This document shows positions 6,923 through 44,260 of a DNA stretch of 44,355 nucleotides, piece by piece. Numbering within the stretch: the stretch's first letter is position 1; each line of letters starts with the position of its first letter. The position numbers were made by a program, and so were the translations under genes. The stretch lies in assembly GCF_044324785.1 (NCBI RefSeq), contig NZ_CP172130.1; one strand, written 5' to 3'. The notes under the pieces are model-generated. The model made no database searches. It worked only from the letters and a program-made list of their open reading frames with translations, and was not told where the DNA came from. This DNA comes from Escherichia coli (GTDB lineage: Bacteria; Pseudomonadota; Gammaproteobacteria; Enterobacterales; Enterobacteriaceae).

Positions 6923-6988
6923 AAATCCTCCTTTGTTAAAGGGCAGGAAGCGGTGCACTTCCTGCCCTTAGTTACGTTTCCGCAGTCA

Positions 6989-7084
6989 TCAATCGATGAA
7001 CTGACGGATCAGTTCCAGAACTGCAATCAGCGCGTTTGCAACGGCGACCACAGCCCTGAGAACGATGATTAACAGGTTAATCAT
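6989..7084 (-). CDS. Candidate type I toxin: 31-aa hydrophobic peptide MINLLIIVLRAVVAVANALIAVLELIRQFID (DinQ/TisB-like)
   Basis: ATG with GGAG 6 nt upstream; the SD lies in a CUCCAG/CUGGAG hairpin; single transmembrane helix; absent from the ORF track because it is under 60 aa. Confidence 0.4.
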   Translation of the reverse strand: MINLLIIVLRAVVAVANALIAVLELIRQFID

Positions 7085-40659: not shown

Positions 40660-40932
40660 TCAGCTAAGGTTGCTCTGTTCAGGTTGCTGAGTGTAGCCTT
40701 CCATGCCCTGACGGGCATCAAAAAGCCAGCGCCGGAAGTTACTCATTCTTTCAAGGTTAGCTTTGCTTGGTTTTTTGCCACGATTACCACTTAATATCCG
40801 CCAGACTCGTATTCCTGCTTTATTAGTCCAGTGCAGAACAATTTCTCCTTTGCTGTTAAAAGCAAGAGAAAAGCGTACAGCGCCTTGCCGCAATTCTCCA
40901 CTGACAAAGGACACAAAATCATGTTTTGTCAT
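40660..40932 (-). CDS. Hypothetical small protein (90 aa), presumed leading region
   Basis: Fourth of four tightly packed small ORFs downstream of a strong promoter. Confidence 0.45.
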   Translation of the reverse strand: MTKHDFVSFVSGELRQGAVRFSLAFNSKGEIVLHWTNKAGIRVWRILSGNRGKKPSKANLERMSNFRRWLFDARQGMEGYTQQPEQSNLS

Positions 40933-40944
40933 AAAGCCTCCGGT

Positions 40945-41142
40945 TTATTTATCTGTTCTCTTTTGTGTCTTTTTTTCCAGTGCTTTTCTGAGTAATGCCA
41001 TATACTCAGGAAAGACATGGAATGGCATCAAAGGGAAAACCGGACGCCCACCCTTTTCAACGTCATTTATTGCTGATAATATGCGTTCCGACATTTTATT
41101 CCTCGCAATAGAATCAGGTGTCACGGTATCAGGTTGCCCCAC
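40945..41142 (-). CDS. Hypothetical small protein (65 aa)
   Basis: Tightly packed small ORF in the same string. Confidence 0.4.
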   Translation of the reverse strand: MGQPDTVTPDSIARNKMSERILSAINDVEKGGRPVFPLMPFHVFPEYMALLRKALEKKTQKRTDK

Positions 41143-41163
41143 AACCTGATACCATCTTTATCT

Positions 41164-41343
41164 TTACTTTATTAACTTCTCAATTGCTTCTTTTTTTGCT
41201 TTCTCCTGTTCTGATGGTGGGTATGCAAGGTCATACCAGTTATCAATACAATGAATAACTCTTTCTTTAGATAATCCACATTGCTCAAACCAAAATTTTA
41301 TATTTCGGTTTAATGATGCTTTTGCGCTAAACTCTCTTTCCAT
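41164..41343 (-). CDS. Hypothetical small protein (59 aa)
   Basis: MEREFSAKASLNRNIKFWFEQCGLSKERVIHCIDNWYDLAYPPSEQEKAKKEAIEKLIK; found by manual translation (under the ORF-track cutoff). Confidence 0.35.
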   Translation of the reverse strand: MEREFSAKASLNRNIKFWFEQCGLSKERVIHCIDNWYDLAYPPSEQEKAKKEAIEKLIK

Positions 41344-41385
41344 TTTCAGACCTTTACTAAAAGGGGGAATATCCCCCCTGATTAA

Positions 41386-41715
41386 TTAGTAGTAAGAAGA
41401 AAATCGATGTTTTTCTTCCGGTAGAGTTTTATACGCAGTTTCAAAATCTTCGATTTTGATTGCCAGCTCATCACCAAAATCTTTTATCTGACGCTTAAAA
41501 CATTCACCAGTAAAATCATTTAAAACGGGAGTTTTAAAGCCGACCATTGAATCGGTATATTCTGAATTGGCGCGAATCTCGCGAACGGTGACGGTTTTTT
41601 TACCGTGAACAGAAAGAACCTGGTAGAAGGTTACATTGGTTTGCTCATAGCCCCATGATGATACAAAGATATCACCAACAGAGACAGTATCATTTTTAAA
41701 AGTTAATACTTTCAT
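41386..41715 (-). CDS. Hypothetical protein (109 aa), first gene behind duplicated promoter-operator-leader copy 1
   Basis: Start directly preceded by GGGAGCTAAA and a conserved leader hairpin. Confidence 0.5.
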   Translation of the reverse strand: MKVLTFKNDTVSVGDIFVSSWGYEQTNVTFYQVLSVHGKKTVTVREIRANSEYTDSMVGFKTPVLNDFTGECFKRQIKDFGDELAIKIEDFETAYKTLPEEKHRFSSYY

Positions 41716-41805
41716 TTTTAGCTCCCGCCCAGCTTGGGCTCTGGATGAAAGAGAACCTGTTTCCCTTTCCTGTGTTTTATTATACCTGCATTTGCAGGTA
41801 TGGCA
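41716..41805 (-). promoter_or_regulatory. Promoter-operator-leader cassette, copy 1 (TTGCCA-16 bp-TATAAT with ACCTGCAAATGCAGGT palindrome; leader hairpin GCCCAAGCTGGGC)
   Basis: About 90 bp, roughly 90% identical to 42627..42716. Confidence 0.6.
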
Positions 41806-41807
41806 AG

Positions 41808-42029
41808 TTATTTTTTTACCAGCCTGTAAGACGGATGCATATTTGCTAATAACAATAAATACTGATATTCACCAATAGATAAAGAACGACTGGCCTTACC
41901 TGCACTTTCTTTCATCTGCCAGGAATTCAGTTGATAACCAAAAATATCAGCAGCTTCTTTAAGAGTAAGACCTGCCGCAACCCGCGCATTCTTTACTTCT
42001 TCAGGTGTAGGTTTATTCTGCATTTTCAT
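41808..42029 (-). CDS. Small HTH (XRE-like) DNA-binding protein (73 aa)
   Basis: Helix-turn-helix signature ...AAGLTLKEAADIFGY...; overlaps the upstream 81/85-aa ORF by 17 nt. Confidence 0.55.
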   Translation of the reverse strand: MKMQNKPTPEEVKNARVAAGLTLKEAADIFGYQLNSWQMKESAGKASRSLSIGEYQYLLLLANMHPSYRLVKK

Positions 42030-42270
42030 CCCCTTTTGTCAGACAATCACACAAAACCCCATTATCCAGAAGCATCAATGATGCCAGGTTGAGTTTTTCG
42101 TCCATTATCAATTTTCTTACTGTTTTCCTGCTTTTAGTTTTATCAATCGTCTTAACATATTTTAAGACGTGAAAAACCGTATCCCCATCTTCATCCATCG
42201 TTCTGATTACATAGGAGTAATTACCTCTGTTTTTCTTAATTATCTTATCTTTATCCATATTATTCCTCAT
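42013..42270 (-). CDS. Hypothetical small protein (81-85 aa) translationally coupled to the HTH gene
   Basis: Probable start at 42258 (GAGGAA then ATG, MDKDK...). Confidence 0.45.
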   Translation of the reverse strand: MRNNMDKDKIIKKNRGNYSYVIRTMDEDGDTVFHVLKYVKTIDKTKSRKTVRKLIMDEKLNLASLMLLDNGVLCDCLTKGDENAE

Positions 42271-42271
42271 A

Positions 42272-42300
42272 ACTAAAAAAGGGGCTTAATGCCCCTTTTT
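42272..42300 (-). terminator. Intrinsic terminator hairpin, plausibly bidirectional
   Basis: AAAAAGGGGCATTAAGCCCCTTTTTT. Confidence 0.6.
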
Positions 42301-42302
42301 AT

Positions 42303-42626
42303 CTATAACACGGTATGTAACCCTGTTTCCTGTGTAAATAAACGCGCTAACTGATCACAATAGATATTATCGAATCTTGAAATATCTTTAACTTCAGCAC
42401 CACGTACACGAGAAAATTTCACCTGGTACGTATCAGTAAAATCCAGTTTAATTTTTACTAAGTTGATGCCTTTCATTGCAAAATTTGACGGCAAACGGAA
42501 AGTTAACCCACACTCACCGTTTTCATCAAAGTAAGAAAAACTTTTAGCACCAGTCATAACAATAAAACGATTACCACCAAGTTGACGTAAAATCTCTGTG
42601 GCTACAGATTTAGCGTAGTTTTGCAT
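42303..42626 (-). CDS. Hypothetical protein (107 aa) behind promoter-operator-leader copy 2
   Basis: Start preceded by GGGAGGTTAAA and the conserved leader hairpin. Confidence 0.5.
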   Translation of the reverse strand: MQNYAKSVATEILRQLGGNRFIVMTGAKSFSYFDENGECGLTFRLPSNFAMKGINLVKIKLDFTDTYQVKFSRVRGAEVKDISRFDNIYCDQLARLFTQETGLHTVL

Positions 42627-42716
42627 TTTTAACCTCCCGCCCACTTTGGGCTCTGGATGAAAGAGAACCTGTTTCCCTTTCTTGTGTTTTATTATACCTG
42701 CATTTGCAGGTATTGC
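42627..42716 (-). promoter_or_regulatory. Promoter-operator-leader cassette, copy 2 (TTGCAA-16 bp-TATAAT with the same palindrome and leader hairpin)
   Basis: Direct repeat of 41716..41805. Confidence 0.6.
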
Positions 42717-42771
42717 AAATTTTTAATGCTCTCGCTCTGACTGTAAACAGTCAATCATTTGATGATTAATC

Positions 42772-43053
42772 TTAGCGCAAATCTGCGATCTGATAGACTT
42801 CGCTGCTTTCCCTTCTTCCAACGGCAATAACGAGTAAAACGACTTTCTCATCAATGACTTGGTATACAAGTCTGTAGCCAGATGCACGAAGTTTGATTTT
42901 ATAGCGATCAGCATGACCATGTAACCGGGCTGCGGGTACGCGTGGATTTTCCAGCCGTTCTGCCAGTTTCTTTTTGAATTGTTCACGGATGGTGTGGCCG
43001 AGTTTCTGCCATTCCTTCAGTGCTCTACGGTCAAAAGCCAGTTCATAGGTCAT
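42772..43053 (-). CDS. stbE: RelE/ParE-family toxin of a type II toxin-antitoxin pair
   Basis: 93 aa; RelE-like sequence (…YKIKLRASGYRLVYQVIDEKVVLLVIAVGRRE…); 11-nt overlap with the upstream antitoxin gene. Confidence 0.8.
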   Translation of the reverse strand: MTYELAFDRRALKEWQKLGHTIREQFKKKLAERLENPRVPAARLHGHADRYKIKLRASGYRLVYQVIDEKVVLLVIAVGRRESSEVYQIADLR

Positions 43054-43294
43054 CCAGGTTAACCTTCACAATTTCCGGGTTTTTCATGCGCTCATCAGCA
43101 ACAGCGTTTAACTCAGCATCTTCAGCGAGTTCCCGATAGTAGGCGTAAAGTTTTGGTGGAACGCAATAGAACGCCGGTTCGTTTCGGTTCAGGATCGCAA
43201 CAGCGTCCCCTTCACCTTCAGCTACGGTTCCCATAGGATTTTTTTTCAGGTCAGTAATACTGGCCGCTGTGGTTGTCAGAATTTGATAGCTCAT
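43043..43294 (-). CDS. stbD: RelB/Phd/YefM-type antitoxin
   Basis: 83-aa acidic protein immediately upstream of and overlapping the RelE-like gene. Confidence 0.75.
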   Translation of the reverse strand: MSYQILTTTAASITDLKKNPMGTVAEGEGDAVAILNRNEPAFYCVPPKLYAYYRELAEDAELNAVADERMKNPEIVKVNLDDL

Positions 43295-43767
43295 AAGCCC
43301 TCCGCTTGTCTCATTGGCATAATAGCATCTTTAAAAGCACTCTTAAAAGTGCTTATGTTGAGAAAAACATCAGAACAGGTGAGATATGGCTCTTTCCGAC
43401 ATCGCCTTAAAACGCTCTGTAACGCGTTCTGAGCGTTTTTTCCCGTTTCGTTGTAGTCAGCTACGGTTTAACGGTTTTTAACGCCGCTCAACGCTTTTTA
43501 GCGGCCTTGTTGCTGTGATCTGTTGCCATGATCCGGATAGGAGTTCAATCTTGATCAAAATTTCCTCAAGGCAACGACTGTTTTGTAAATACCCTCTAAA
43601 ACGCGCTGTATCGCATTCTGAGCGATTTTTTCGATTTCGCATGTTTTCACCATGGTTGTATCGAACGAAGCGGCAGAAAGCGATTCAGGGCTTCTCAGTG
43701 AAAGATCCAAAAAGGATCAATCAACGGATCGTATGAGCTGAACTCTTCTGGTTTTGAGAAAGGAGAC

Positions 43768-43945: not shown

Positions 43946-44045
43946 GGCGCTGTGCATTTAAAAAACTTATCTTTTCTTCTTGATCTTAAAAACTTAAAAA
44001 CTTAGAGCGTCGTAACATTATGATAAATATAATAAAAAAACGCTA

Positions 44046-44177
44046 AACATGAGAGGATTTTTAACGTAAGGTGAGAGGATCTTTAACATAAGGTGAGAAG
44101 ATTTTTAAGTAAGGGTGAGAAGATTTTTCACTAAAGATGAGAGGATTTTTAACGAAAGGTGAGAGGATTTTTAAGTA
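44046..44177 (+). repeat. Six tandem 22-bp iterons of a gamma-type (pi-dependent) replication origin
   Basis: AACATGAGAGGATTTTTAACGT / AAGGTGAGAGGATCTTTAACAT / AAGGTGAGAAGATTTTTAAGTA / AGGGTGAGAAGATTTTTCACTA / AAGATGAGAGGATTTTTAACGA / AAGGTGAGAGGATTTTTAAGTA; AT-rich flanks. Confidence 0.85.
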
Positions 44178-44260
44178 CATCCACAGGCTAAAAAAATATC
44201 ATGTAAAACATGATGTTATGAATTCATTTTGATGTGAATACATAAAGATCTTTATATCTA

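What the first reader, a model, noticed from the sequence alone, without database searches (positions are those of the whole stretch)
41808..42258. Overlapping small gene pair (81-85 aa plus 73-aa HTH): possible toxin-antitoxin or repressor module
The two ORFs overlap by 17 nt, suggesting translational coupling; the second is an XRE-type HTH protein. This could be a higBA-like toxin-antitoxin pair or the regulator of the duplicated cassettes. The upstream gene starts immediately after a terminator hairpin with no obvious promoter of its own.
Basis: inference. Interest (0 to 1): 0.45.

Follow-up and report, generated by a model that had tools for sequence, protein, structure and literature searches.

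The report
Plasmid entry-gene repressor with small partner
The two overlapping small genes are real and conserved on thousands of conjugative resistance plasmids, but the evidence points to a small DNA-binding repressor (plus a partner of unknown role) that shuts off two duplicated strong promoters driving "entry" genes, not to a classic toxin-antitoxin pair.

Summary
The window is a complete IncX1 conjugative plasmid. The finding's two ORFs are real and lie on the minus strand. ORF81 is 42013-42258 and HTH71 is 41808-42023. They overlap by 11 nt from the conserved start codons, or 17 nt from the longest ORFs. They sit just after a strong terminator and have no promoter of their own.

HTH71 is a minimal Cro/XRE-type protein. 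Its nearest solved relatives are Aca10, the MqsA HTH domain and Aca3. An 18-bp palindrome, TACCTGCAAATGCAGGTA, fills the -35/-10 spacer of both duplicated cassettes that flank the pair.

In ten other plasmid backbones the same promoter-operator-leader cassette recurs two or three times next to an HTH71 homologue. The operator core changes as the HTH diverges. The tandem double-HTH of pOXA-48 (Orf20, experimentally essential) goes with an asymmetric operator.

ORF81 matches no toxin family or fold and diverges faster than the HTH in 36 of 36 comparisons. Nevertheless it always sits translationally coupled in front of the HTH gene.

Best reading: an autoregulated repressor of leading-region genes (zygotic induction), with a partner of unknown role. 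A toxin-antitoxin-like reading is not excluded. IncX4 "TsxAB" may be the homologous pair, but I could not read that paper.

The parts
42013..42258 (-). ORF81 (RefSeq WP_000356546.1). Small Lys-rich protein predicted as a four-stranded beta meander plus two C-terminal helices. It is translationally coupled to the HTH gene. An alternative ATG at 42270 would give 85 aa.
   Evidence: AF2 pLDDT 81, pTM 0.68. The family is tiny: 9 hits at E<1e-3 among 1.84 billion representatives. It is homologous to the small proteins that precede the HTH in IncX3/X4/I2 (hhalign probability 95.7%, E 8.6e-9).
41808..42023 (-). HTH71 (RefSeq WP_001180116.1; 'YajA' in some records). Minimal Cro/XRE-type helix-turn-helix protein and the proposed dimeric repressor. 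An alternative ATG at 42029 would give 73 aa.
   Evidence: tblastn finds homologues in 4246 PLSDB plasmids, 3845 of them conjugative.
42275..42300 (-). Intrinsic terminator between ORF107 and ORF81: AAAAAGGGGC-AUUAA-GCCCCUUUUUU.
   Evidence: dG -20.3, z -3.9. Hairpins occupy the same position in L005, L006 and L011.
42627..42724 (-). Cassette P1. It contains -35 TTGCAA (42718-42713), the 18-bp palindromic operator (42695-42712), -10 TATAAT (42696-42691), a two-hairpin leader and a Shine-Dalgarno sequence. It drives ORF107 and, by read-through, ORF81-HTH71.
   Evidence: (repeat D2, 92% identity to P2).
41715..41812 (-). Cassette P2. It contains -35 TTGCCA (41806-41801), the 18-bp palindromic operator (41783-41800), -10 TATAAT (41784-41779), a two-hairpin leader and a Shine-Dalgarno sequence. 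It starts 2 nt after the HTH71 stop codon and drives ORF109.
   Evidence: (11 of 12 consensus matches).
42303..42626 (-). ORF107 (WP_001181903.1; 113 aa from the upstream GTG). First gene behind P1 and a cargo gene of unknown function.
   Evidence: PHROG 9437 (unknown function), E 1.7e-26. No PDB relative. A homologue occupies the same position in Pantoea pDSJ07.
41386..41715 (-). ORF109 (WP_000866648.1). Gene behind P2 and a cargo gene of unknown function.
   Evidence: PHROG 37844, E 2.1e-12. A homologue lies behind the equivalent cassette in Pantoea pDSJ07.
40660..41378 (-). Downstream string that may be fed by P2 read-through: terminator 41364-41378, ORF59 (41164-41343), ORF49 (40945-41094) and ORF90 (40660-40932). 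ORF90 is the IncX1 homologue of VirBR.
   Evidence: ORF90 is 74% identical to IncX3 VirBR. No sigma-70-like site lies on this strand between P2 and ORF90.

Best explanation
HTH71 is a small dimeric Cro/Aca-like repressor. Its operator is the 18-bp palindrome TACCTGCA-AA-TGCAGGTA, which fills the spacer of two near-consensus sigma-70 promoters, the 'duplicated cassettes' P1 and P2.

The genes lie on the side of oriT that should enter a recipient first, and they point toward oriT. When the plasmid enters a cell with no repressor, P1 and P2 fire and express the cargo genes ORF107 and ORF109, and possibly ORF59, ORF49 and the VirBR homologue by read-through. A fraction of P1 transcripts passes the terminator after ORF107 and yields ORF81 and, by translational coupling, HTH71. 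HTH71 then occupies both operators and shuts the programme down. This is negative autoregulation, or zygotic induction.

ORF81 is the repressor's constant, co-inherited partner. Its role is not established. It is not a recognisable toxin.

Shown by sequence: the promoters, operators, terminator, gene overlap, conservation, and covariation of operator with repressor.

Inferred: binding, repression, read-through, the direction of transfer, and any role of ORF81.
For: 1. The palindrome occurs only twice in the window, both times between -35 and -10 of the cassettes. Chance expectation is 0.04.

2. Nine further single-HTH backbones carry the same cassette beside an HTH71 homologue, and eight of them have it two or three times. 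IncX4 shows one copy, but that locus is cut at the record end. One copy usually abuts the HTH stop codon.

3. The operator core co-varies with HTH divergence. It is TACCTGCA in IncX1/L004/L005/L006, where the HTH is 76-82% identical. It is ACCATCAT in IncX3, TACGAC in IncX4, TACATCTA in IncI2, TAGGTCA in L011 and TACCGCAC in L013.

4. In IncL/M pOXA-48-type plasmids the HTH is a fused tandem double domain. There the spacer carries a conserved asymmetric sequence, TATATGGCTCATT, in otherwise the same cassette.

5. The nearest solved relative is Aca10, a 65-aa dimeric repressor. Its minimal operator, ATACGCTCATTGAGCGTAT, overlaps its operon's promoter (PMC9410881).

6. pOXA-48 Orf20, the tandem homologue, can be deleted only when it is supplied in trans. 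Transconjugants that lack it elongate and lose the plasmid (10.1101/2025.01.23.634512; PMC12361523).

7. A strong terminator and no promoter precede the pair.

8. Against a toxin role for ORF81: no toxin HMM or fold matches. The HTH is always the more conserved partner, mean 54% versus 32% identity.
Against: Nothing here is experimental for IncX1. Binding of HTH71 to the palindrome, promoter activity and terminator read-through are all inferred.

The constant adjacency and overlap of ORF81 with the HTH gene is exactly the layout of toxin-first TA pairs such as higBA and mqsRA. The HTH is related to the MqsA DNA-binding domain.

The essentiality of Orf20, and of IncX4 'tsxB', would also fit an antitoxin.

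The model gives ORF81 no role.

The leading-region assignment rests on analogy with MOBP plasmids such as RP4, not on a mapped nic site.
Confidence: 0.65

Rival explanations
1. Type II toxin-antitoxin, or 'TA-like', addiction module. ORF81 is a toxin of a new fold. HTH71 is its antitoxin and also the transcriptional autorepressor. Loss of the plasmid or of HTH71 frees ORF81 and harms the cell.
For: The layout is toxin-first with overlapping genes.

The HTH profile matches the MqsA antitoxin HTH domain, E 1.5e-4.

NCBI names one homologue 'antitoxin Xre-like HTH'.

pOXA-48 Orf20 is essential, while the upstream orf19 can be deleted (10.1101/2025.01.23.634512).

In IncX4, a 'TA-like' TsxAB pair has a tsxB gene that takes no Tn5 insertions (PMC8725589, citing Bustamante and Iredell 2019). 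The IncX4 homologues of this pair (YajB/YajA) may be that system, but I could not verify this.

Natural alleles with truncated ORF81 exist. That pattern is expected for a dispensable toxin.
Against: ORF81 matches no toxin model at E<=1 in Pfam, NCBIfam or PADLOC. Its only PADLOC row is a sub-threshold match to the antitoxin AbiEi, E 0.024.

HTH71 is only a 71-aa DNA-binding domain with no extra neutralising segment.

The putative antitoxin is more conserved than the putative toxin in 36 of 36 comparisons, the reverse of the usual TA pattern.

The operators control other genes, and none lies directly upstream of the pair.

pOXA-48 needs the HTH although its upstream gene is unrelated to ORF81.

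A linked-chain AF2 model with 9 paired sequences gives pTM 0.38, so no confident interface. This is weak evidence because the alignment is shallow and no PAE was available.
Confidence: 0.2
2. An acr-aca-type anti-defence operon. ORF81, with or without ORF107 and ORF109, is a fast-evolving inhibitor of a host defence system. HTH71 is the Aca-like repressor that limits its expression after entry.
For: The nearest solved relatives of the HTH include Aca10 and Aca3 (PMC9410881).

A variable small protein lies directly upstream of a conserved HTH.

The genes lie in the leading region with the T-strand as template. Anti-defence genes are enriched in this setting (PMC11541004).

A palindromic operator overlaps a strong promoter.
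Against: ORF81-like proteins form one homologous family that always accompanies the HTH. Known acr genes, by contrast, are swapped freely in front of aca genes.

ORF81 is the penultimate gene, behind a terminator, and not the promoter-proximal gene.

No similarity to any known anti-defence protein could be tested with these tools.
Confidence: 0.15
3. ORF81 is a regulatory cofactor of HTH71, acting as co-repressor, anti-repressor or nucleic-acid-binding partner. Together they set the timing of shut-off.
For: Strict co-inheritance, translational coupling and co-divergence hold across nine backbones.

A conserved basic N-terminal motif, (R/K)KNKGxxxY, is present.

A beta-beta-beta-beta-alpha topology gives repeated but non-significant matches to PUR-alpha and PC4-type single-strand-binding folds.

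The neighbouring regulator VirBR is likewise a small beta-rich atypical DNA binder (PMC11214620).

Against: The linked-chain model shows no confident complex.

pOXA-48-type plasmids run the same cassette system without an ORF81 homologue.
Confidence: 0.15

Closest known systems
Aca10, repressor of the acrIC7-acrIC6-aca10 operon of Pseudomonas citronellolis (PDB 7XI5; PMC9410881)
   Same: Both are single-domain HTH proteins of about 65-71 aa. Aca10 is the best PDB hit of the HTH71 family profile (E 1.2e-4). Both are encoded last in an operon. Aca10 binds a perfect 19-bp palindrome that overlaps the promoter; HTH71 is predicted to bind an 18-20-bp one. Both palindromes have outer ATAC...GTAT bases.
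   Different: Similarity is distant and appears only with a profile. The upstream genes here are not known anti-CRISPRs. The operator is duplicated on separate promoters that control other genes. A fixed small partner gene always precedes the HTH. The host is an enterobacterial conjugative plasmid.
ArdK / CUP regulon of IncN pKM101 (Delver and Belogurov 1997, cited in PMC6289460)
   Same: Repeated conserved upstream elements in the leading region each carry a promoter. All are repressed by one small plasmid-encoded, autoregulated repressor. This is the same logic as proposed here.
   Different: ArdK belongs to the TrfB/KorA family (IPR032428), not to this HTH family. The CUP sequences are unrelated.
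pOXA-48 Orf20 (DNDJGHEP_0014) (10.1101/2025.01.23.634512; PMC12361523)
   Same: It is a true homologue, about 46% identical per domain. It sits behind the same type of cassette. It has been shown to be essential for plasmid maintenance and establishment. Its regulon is unknown.
   Different: It is a fused tandem double HTH of 159 aa with an asymmetric operator candidate. The upstream gene, orf19, is unrelated to ORF81.
MqsRA and HigBA type II toxin-antitoxin systems
   Same: Both have a toxin-first layout with overlapping genes. The antitoxin carries an XRE-type HTH that binds a palindrome in the promoter. The MqsA HTH domain is the second-best PDB hit (E 1.5e-4).
   Different: ORF81 has no RelE/MqsR-like sequence or fold. 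HTH71 lacks MqsA's zinc-binding, toxin-binding domain. The operators are not directly upstream of the pair.
TsxAB 'TA-like' system of IncX4 pJIE143 (Bustamante and Iredell 2019, J Antimicrob Chemother 74:553; not readable here)
   Same: It is possibly the IncX4 homologue of this very pair. The 'antitoxin' tsxB takes no Tn5 insertions in pHNSHP23 (PMC8725589), mirroring the essentiality of Orf20.
   Different: I could not verify the identity. No record or readable text links tsxAB to YajB/YajA. The authors themselves call it 'TA-like'.
KorC of IncP/IncU/IncL-M plasmids
   Same: It is a small HTH global repressor that binds 17-bp palindromes inside the promoters of kil-type and backbone genes. 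Losing it is lethal or destabilising.
   Different: It is not detectably homologous. hhalign of the HTH71 family against pOXA-48 KorC gives probability 0.7%.

Membership tests
Type II toxin-antitoxin (HigBA / MqsRA / RelE-ParE / Gp49 type) | The toxin belongs to a recognised toxin sequence family. | tested here: not met
   ORF81 has 0 families at E<=1 in Pfam and NCBIfam. PADLOC gives only a sub-threshold match to the antitoxin AbiEi, E 0.024. A profile of the family against PDB sequences finds nothing below E 0.18.
Type II toxin-antitoxin (HigBA / MqsRA / RelE-ParE / Gp49 type) | The toxin has a known toxin fold (RelE/ParE, MqsR, HicA, MazF/CcdB and others). | tested here: not met
Type II toxin-antitoxin (HigBA / MqsRA / RelE-ParE / Gp49 type) | The two genes are small, adjacent or overlapping, and co-transcribed. 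| tested here: met
   The overlap is 11 nt here and 4-14 nt in nine backbones.
Type II toxin-antitoxin (HigBA / MqsRA / RelE-ParE / Gp49 type) | The pair has its own promoter, with the antitoxin's operator directly upstream. | tested here: not met
   A terminator and no promoter-like site lie upstream of ORF81. The only operators are upstream of ORF107 and downstream of the HTH stop codon.
Type II toxin-antitoxin (HigBA / MqsRA / RelE-ParE / Gp49 type) | The antitoxin binds and neutralises the toxin. | tested here: inconclusive
   A linked-chain AF2 model with 9 paired sequences gives pTM 0.38, while both domains keep their own confidence. The alignment is shallow and no PAE was returned.
Type II toxin-antitoxin (HigBA / MqsRA / RelE-ParE / Gp49 type) | The toxin arrests growth when expressed alone and is rescued by the antitoxin. 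| not testable with these tools
   This needs an expression assay.
Cro/C1 (XRE)-type HTH DNA-binding proteins | Sequence similarity to the HTH_3/XRE superfamily and an all-helical fold. | tested here: met
   The profile hits Aca10, the MqsA HTH domain, Aca3, 434 repressor and 434 Cro. PHROG 7950 'transcriptional repressor' matches at E 5e-4. AF2 gives four helices at pLDDT about 90. Single-sequence Pfam and NCBIfam hits stay below the curated cut-offs.
Anti-CRISPR-associated (Aca) repressors | An HTH protein encoded at the end of an operon whose promoter carries its inverted-repeat operator. | tested here: met
   By sequence only. The palindrome fills the -35/-10 spacer of P1, the only promoter upstream of the pair.
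Anti-CRISPR-associated (Aca) repressors | The upstream gene or genes of the operon inhibit CRISPR-Cas. | not testable with these tools
   No anti-CRISPR library or assay was available. ORF81, ORF107 and ORF109 have no annotated relatives.
ArdK/CUP regulon (IncN) | Repeated conserved upstream promoter elements in the leading region. | tested here: met
   Two 98-nt copies, 92% identical, are present in the window. Most other backbones carry two or three copies.
ArdK/CUP regulon (IncN) | The repressor belongs to the TrfB/KorA family. | tested here: not met
   HTH71 has no TrfB/KorA hit in Pfam or NCBIfam. ArdK is IPR032428 according to PMC6289460.
KorC repressors | Homology to KorC. | tested here: not met
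   hhalign against pOXA-48 KorC gives probability 0.7%.
Frpo/ssi single-strand promoters | A long hairpin in the transferred strand that rebuilds a duplex -35/-10. | tested here: not met
   A ssDNA fold of the coding (non-template) strand of the P2 region shows only the 8-bp operator hairpin and the short leader hairpins. There is no duplex spanning -35 to -10. The transferred strand is its complement and has the mirror-image hairpin potential, but it was not folded separately.

The most novel reading that the evidence does not exclude
The pair is the master switch of a modular 'entry programme' shared by several thousand enterobacterial resistance plasmids (IncX1/X3/X4, IncI2, IncL/M, some IncF-like). 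The programme has three parts. The first is a portable promoter-operator-structured-leader cassette placed in front of many different leading-region genes. The second is a matching HTH repressor whose specificity has diversified into at least seven operator types. The third is a new-fold partner protein.

In IncX plasmids the switch would also gate VirBR, the activator of the type IV secretion genes. That would couple establishment in a new host to a transient burst of onward transfer. It would also explain why virBR appears silent in established laboratory cultures, and why Orf20 and TsxB-type regulators are essential.
Probability: 0.25. Interest if true: 0.75.

Novelty: new variant of a known kind. 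Interest (0 to 1): 0.5.

Why it matters
HTH71-family genes occur in about 6% of all plasmids in PLSDB (4246 of 72,556 records). These include the main vehicles of blaNDM (IncX3), mcr-1 (IncX4, IncI2) and blaOXA-48 (IncL).

Two 2025 studies found the pOXA-48 homologue essential for plasmid maintenance. Both stated that its target genes are unknown.

The cassette-and-operator assignment made here names concrete targets and a mechanism: repression of strong leading-region promoters after entry. It can be tested in a few days with EMSA and reporter fusions.

If it is right, it identifies a conserved, plasmid-essential regulator-operator pair that could be targeted to destabilise resistance plasmids. 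It also gives a simple sequence signature for finding early-expressed, and possibly anti-defence, plasmid genes.

Tried and rejected
- **Toxin family searches.** Pfam, NCBIfam, PHROGs and PADLOC at E<=1 gave no toxin-family match for ORF81.
- **Wide homologue search for ORF81.** The profile search of 1.84 billion representatives gave 9 hits, showing a tiny family rather than a link to anything known.
- **VirBR.** I first suspected ORF81 might be this 85-aa IncX regulator. I rejected that: VirBR corresponds to ORF90 at 40660-40932.
- **PixR.** It is a different gene near taxC.
- **KorC and ArdK as homologues.** Both rejected.
- **pOXA-48 orf19 as an ORF81 homologue.** No support.
- **IncI1 HTH next to the leader element.** Not convincingly related (probability 16%).
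- **Frpo-type single-strand promoter reading of the cassettes.** Not supported.
- **Rfam.** No family matches the leader or the region.
- **Linked-chain AF2 of ORF81 plus HTH71.** No confident complex, and uninformative without PAE.
- **Identity of TsxAB.** The paper (doi 10.1093/jac/dky491) is not held. pJIE143 (JN194214) is not in the collection. No record annotates tsxA or tsxB. The supplements of PMC8725589 do not mention them.
- **RK2 (BN000925).** Not in the collection.

Full report
**What the window is.** The 1.4 kb around the finding is 100% identical to dozens of IncX1 conjugative plasmids of E. coli and Salmonella. Examples are pDKX1-TEM-52 and NZ_CP104480.1, which is 44,362 bp and nearly collinear with the window. 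On the minus strand the gene order is:
- stbD and stbE (a RelE/ParE toxin-antitoxin pair)
- ORF107
- ORF81 and HTH71
- ORF109, ORF59 and ORF49
- ORF90
- an intergenic region that should hold oriT
- ddp1/taxA and the MobP1 relaxase

All these small genes point toward oriT and share the strand of the relaxase operon. In MOBP plasmids such as RP4 the relaxase operon enters last. By that analogy, this is the leading region with the transferred strand as template, the orientation reported for leading-region genes in PMC11541004. This assignment is an inference; no nic site is mapped here.

**The observation.** Both ORFs are present, on the minus strand. The conserved start codons are 42258 for ORF81 and 42023 for HTH71. 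Each has a Shine-Dalgarno sequence, is used by RefSeq, and matches the N-termini of homologues. These starts give an 11-nt overlap, which recurs in 6 of 9 backbones. The upstream hairpin is a textbook intrinsic terminator at 42275-42300, with a 10-bp stem, U6, dG -20.3 and z -3.9. No sigma-70-like site lies on this strand between it and the next cassette.

**The HTH protein.** As a single sequence, HTH71 gives only sub-threshold hits to MqsA-type HTH models and to a PHROG 'transcriptional repressor'. A profile of eight family members hits Aca10 (7XI5, E 1.2e-4), the MqsA HTH domain (1.5e-4), Aca3 (1.4e-3) and 434 repressor/Cro.

Aca10 is a 65-aa dimer. It represses its own acr operon through a 19-bp palindrome that overlaps the promoter (PMC9410881).

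The family is large. tblastn finds it in 4246 PLSDB plasmids, 3845 of them conjugative. These include IncX3 (59% identity), IncX4 (49%), IncI2 (about 50%) and IncL/M pOXA-48 (45%). Sources call it 'hypothetical', 'XRE family regulator' or 'YajA'.

**The duplicated cassettes are promoter-operator-leader units.** The two 98-nt repeats at 41715-41812 and 42627-42724 are 92% identical. Each contains, in order:
- a near-consensus promoter on the minus strand (TTGCCA or TTGCAA, 16 nt, TATAAT)
- an 18-bp palindrome, TACCTGCAAATGCAGGTA, that fills the spacer and runs into the -10
- a leader with two hairpins, the second abutting the Shine-Dalgarno sequence

These are the only two copies of the palindrome in the plasmid at up to 3 mismatches. 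Chance expectation is 0.04. P2 begins 2 nt after the HTH71 stop codon. P1 is the only promoter upstream of the pair.

**Comparative evidence.** ORF81 homologues at 40-48% identity occur in three other backbones. These are a MOBC plasmid (L004), an IncFII/FIC Salmonella plasmid (L005), and Pantoea pDSJ07 next to traM (L006). Each is followed by an overlapping HTH that is 76-82% identical to HTH71. Each locus carries the same palindrome twice, against a chance expectation of 0.01.

In IncX3, IncX4, IncI2 and two further plasmids (L011, L013) the HTH closes an operon of this form: J-domain protein, a protein of about 180 aa, a small protein, then the HTH. The same cassette architecture is present there, but the palindrome core differs:
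- ACCATCAT..ATGATGGT in IncX3
- TACGAC..GTCGTA in IncX4
- TACATCTA..TAGATGTA in IncI2, three copies
- TAGGTCA..TGACCTA in L011
- TACCGCAC..GTGCGGTA in L013

So operator sequence and repressor sequence diverge together while the -35, the -10 and the leader stay.

In pOXA-48-type IncL/M plasmids the repressor is a fused tandem of two diverged HTH domains. There the spacer of the otherwise identical cassette holds a conserved non-palindromic sequence, TATATGGCTCATT. It lies upstream of orf19-orf20 and of other leading-region genes. A symmetric site with a homodimer, and an asymmetric site with a pseudo-heterodimer, is what the repressor-operator assignment predicts.

**Experimental anchors from the literature.** pOXA-48 Orf20, the tandem homologue, could be deleted only when supplied in trans. 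Recipients lacking it that received the deleted plasmid elongated and lost it. The upstream orf19 was dispensable (10.1101/2025.01.23.634512). CRISPRi silencing of the operon caused plasmid loss. The authors state that the regulated genes are unknown (PMC12361523). This kor-like phenotype is what unchecked firing of strong leading-region promoters would produce. An antitoxin would give the same phenotype.

**ORF81.** It has no Pfam, NCBIfam or PHROG hit, and its only PADLOC row is a sub-threshold AbiEi match at E 0.024. A profile search of 1.84 billion representative proteins returns 9 hits.

The small proteins that precede the HTH in IncX3, IncX4 and IncI2 are homologous to ORF81 (hhalign probability 95.7%, E 8.6e-9). 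They share an N-terminal (R/K)KNKGxxxY motif. The two-gene unit is therefore old and constant.

In all 36 pairwise comparisons among nine backbones, the HTH is more conserved than the small protein. Mean identity is 54% versus 32%. A linked-chain AF2 run with nine paired sequences gives pTM 0.38 with both domains individually confident, so no confident complex.

Truncated ORF81 alleles exist in natural plasmids.

**Verdict on the two interpretations.** The 'regulator of the duplicated cassettes' reading is well supported by sequence logic and covariation. The 'higBA-like TA' reading fails every membership feature I could test except gene layout.

It remains a live rival at about 0.2, for two reasons. 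Toxicity cannot be computed. And an IncX4 'TA-like' pair, TsxAB, has an insertion-free 'antitoxin' tsxB (PMC8725589). TsxAB may be the IncX4 homologue of this pair, YajB/YajA. I could not read the original paper or find any annotation that settles this.

**Mechanism proposed.** On entry, P1 and P2 fire. P1 yields ORF107 and, past a leaky terminator, ORF81 and HTH71 by translational coupling. HTH71 dimers then close both operators.

Placing the repressor behind a terminator keeps its synthesis low relative to the cargo genes. An internal terminator tunes product ratios in the plasmid hicAB operon in a similar way (PMC11878559).

Downstream of P2, ORF59, ORF49 and ORF90 are tightly packed. They have no promoter-like site of their own and only a moderate terminator before them. 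ORF90 is the IncX1 homologue of VirBR, at 74% identity. [quoted passage not shown] A cascade from HTH71 through P2 to VirBR is therefore possible but unproven.

**Novelty.** The logic is known from Aca repressors, the ArdK/CUP regulon of IncN and KorC. The HTH family is not ArdK (TrfB family) and not KorC.

Three features appear undescribed in what I could read:
- a portable cassette with a structured leader
- operator specificities that have diversified together with the repressor
- an invariable small partner gene

No paper in the searchable library names the relevant accessions.

Noticed in passing
window 40660-40932 (-): ORF90 is the IncX1 homologue of VirBR (74% identical to the IncX3 protein). 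VirBR is the published activator of actX and the type IV secretion genes. ORF90 is the last gene before the presumed oriT. No sigma-70-like promoter lies between it and cassette P2.
   Followed up: partly
window 41716-41775 and 42628-42687 (-); L014 2500-2565: The cassette leader is a conserved two-hairpin 5'UTR. All 16 copies from eight backbones fold the same way. An outer helix pairs UCC with the GGA of the Shine-Dalgarno sequence. Hairpin 2 shows compensatory changes (GCCCA/TGGGC, GCCCC/GGGGC, GTCC/GGAC, GCCGC/GCGGC, GCCCG/CGGGC). The leader alone, without the palindromic promoter, also occurs in about 500 larger plasmids such as IncI1, next to ardA. No Rfam family matches it.
   Followed up: partly
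L010 3165-3215 and 4683-4720; L012 2150-2200, 4650-4690 and 5950-5990: pOXA-48-type IncL/M plasmids carry the same cassette. Their spacer sequence, TATATGGCTCATT, is asymmetric. It lies upstream of orf19-orf20 and of other leading-region genes. This matches their fused tandem double-HTH Orf20 and is a candidate operator for a regulator whose targets are reported as unknown.
   Followed up: partly
window 42772-43294 (-): A canonical stbDE-type toxin-antitoxin pair lies immediately upstream of P1. The 93-aa protein matches ParE_toxin (Pfam E 3.2e-14). It overlaps the gene for an 83-aa Phd/YefM-like antitoxin.
   Followed up: partly
window 44028-44199: Six tandem 22-bp repeats (TGAGAGGATTTTTAACGTAAGG-like) are present, probably the replication iterons upstream of the pir-type initiator gene.
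   Followed up: no
window 43408-43450 and 43597-43639: Two 43-nt direct repeats, 84% identical and 189 nt apart, lie between stbD and the iterons. Each contains a short hairpin. Function unknown.
   Followed up: no
window 41125-41153: A perfect 12-bp-stem hairpin (GGTATCAGGTTG-CCCCA-CAACCTGATACC) lies between ORF59 and ORF49. It has no T-run, so it is not a terminator. Function unknown.
   Followed up: no
L007 1812-3233; L008 2104-3266; L009 2577-3738; L013 1605-2762; L004 1339-2542: In IncX3, IncX4, IncI2 and two other backbones, the cargo of the cassette that feeds the small-protein/HTH pair is a J-domain (DnaJ-like) protein plus a protein of about 180 aa with no known function. IncX1 has ORF107 in their place.
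   Followed up: no
window about 6980-7080 (from the annotation of NZ_CP104480.1, 6989-7084): The near-identical plasmid record annotates a DinQ-like type I toxin gene, dqlB. The same family was recently reported on pOXA-48.
   Followed up: no
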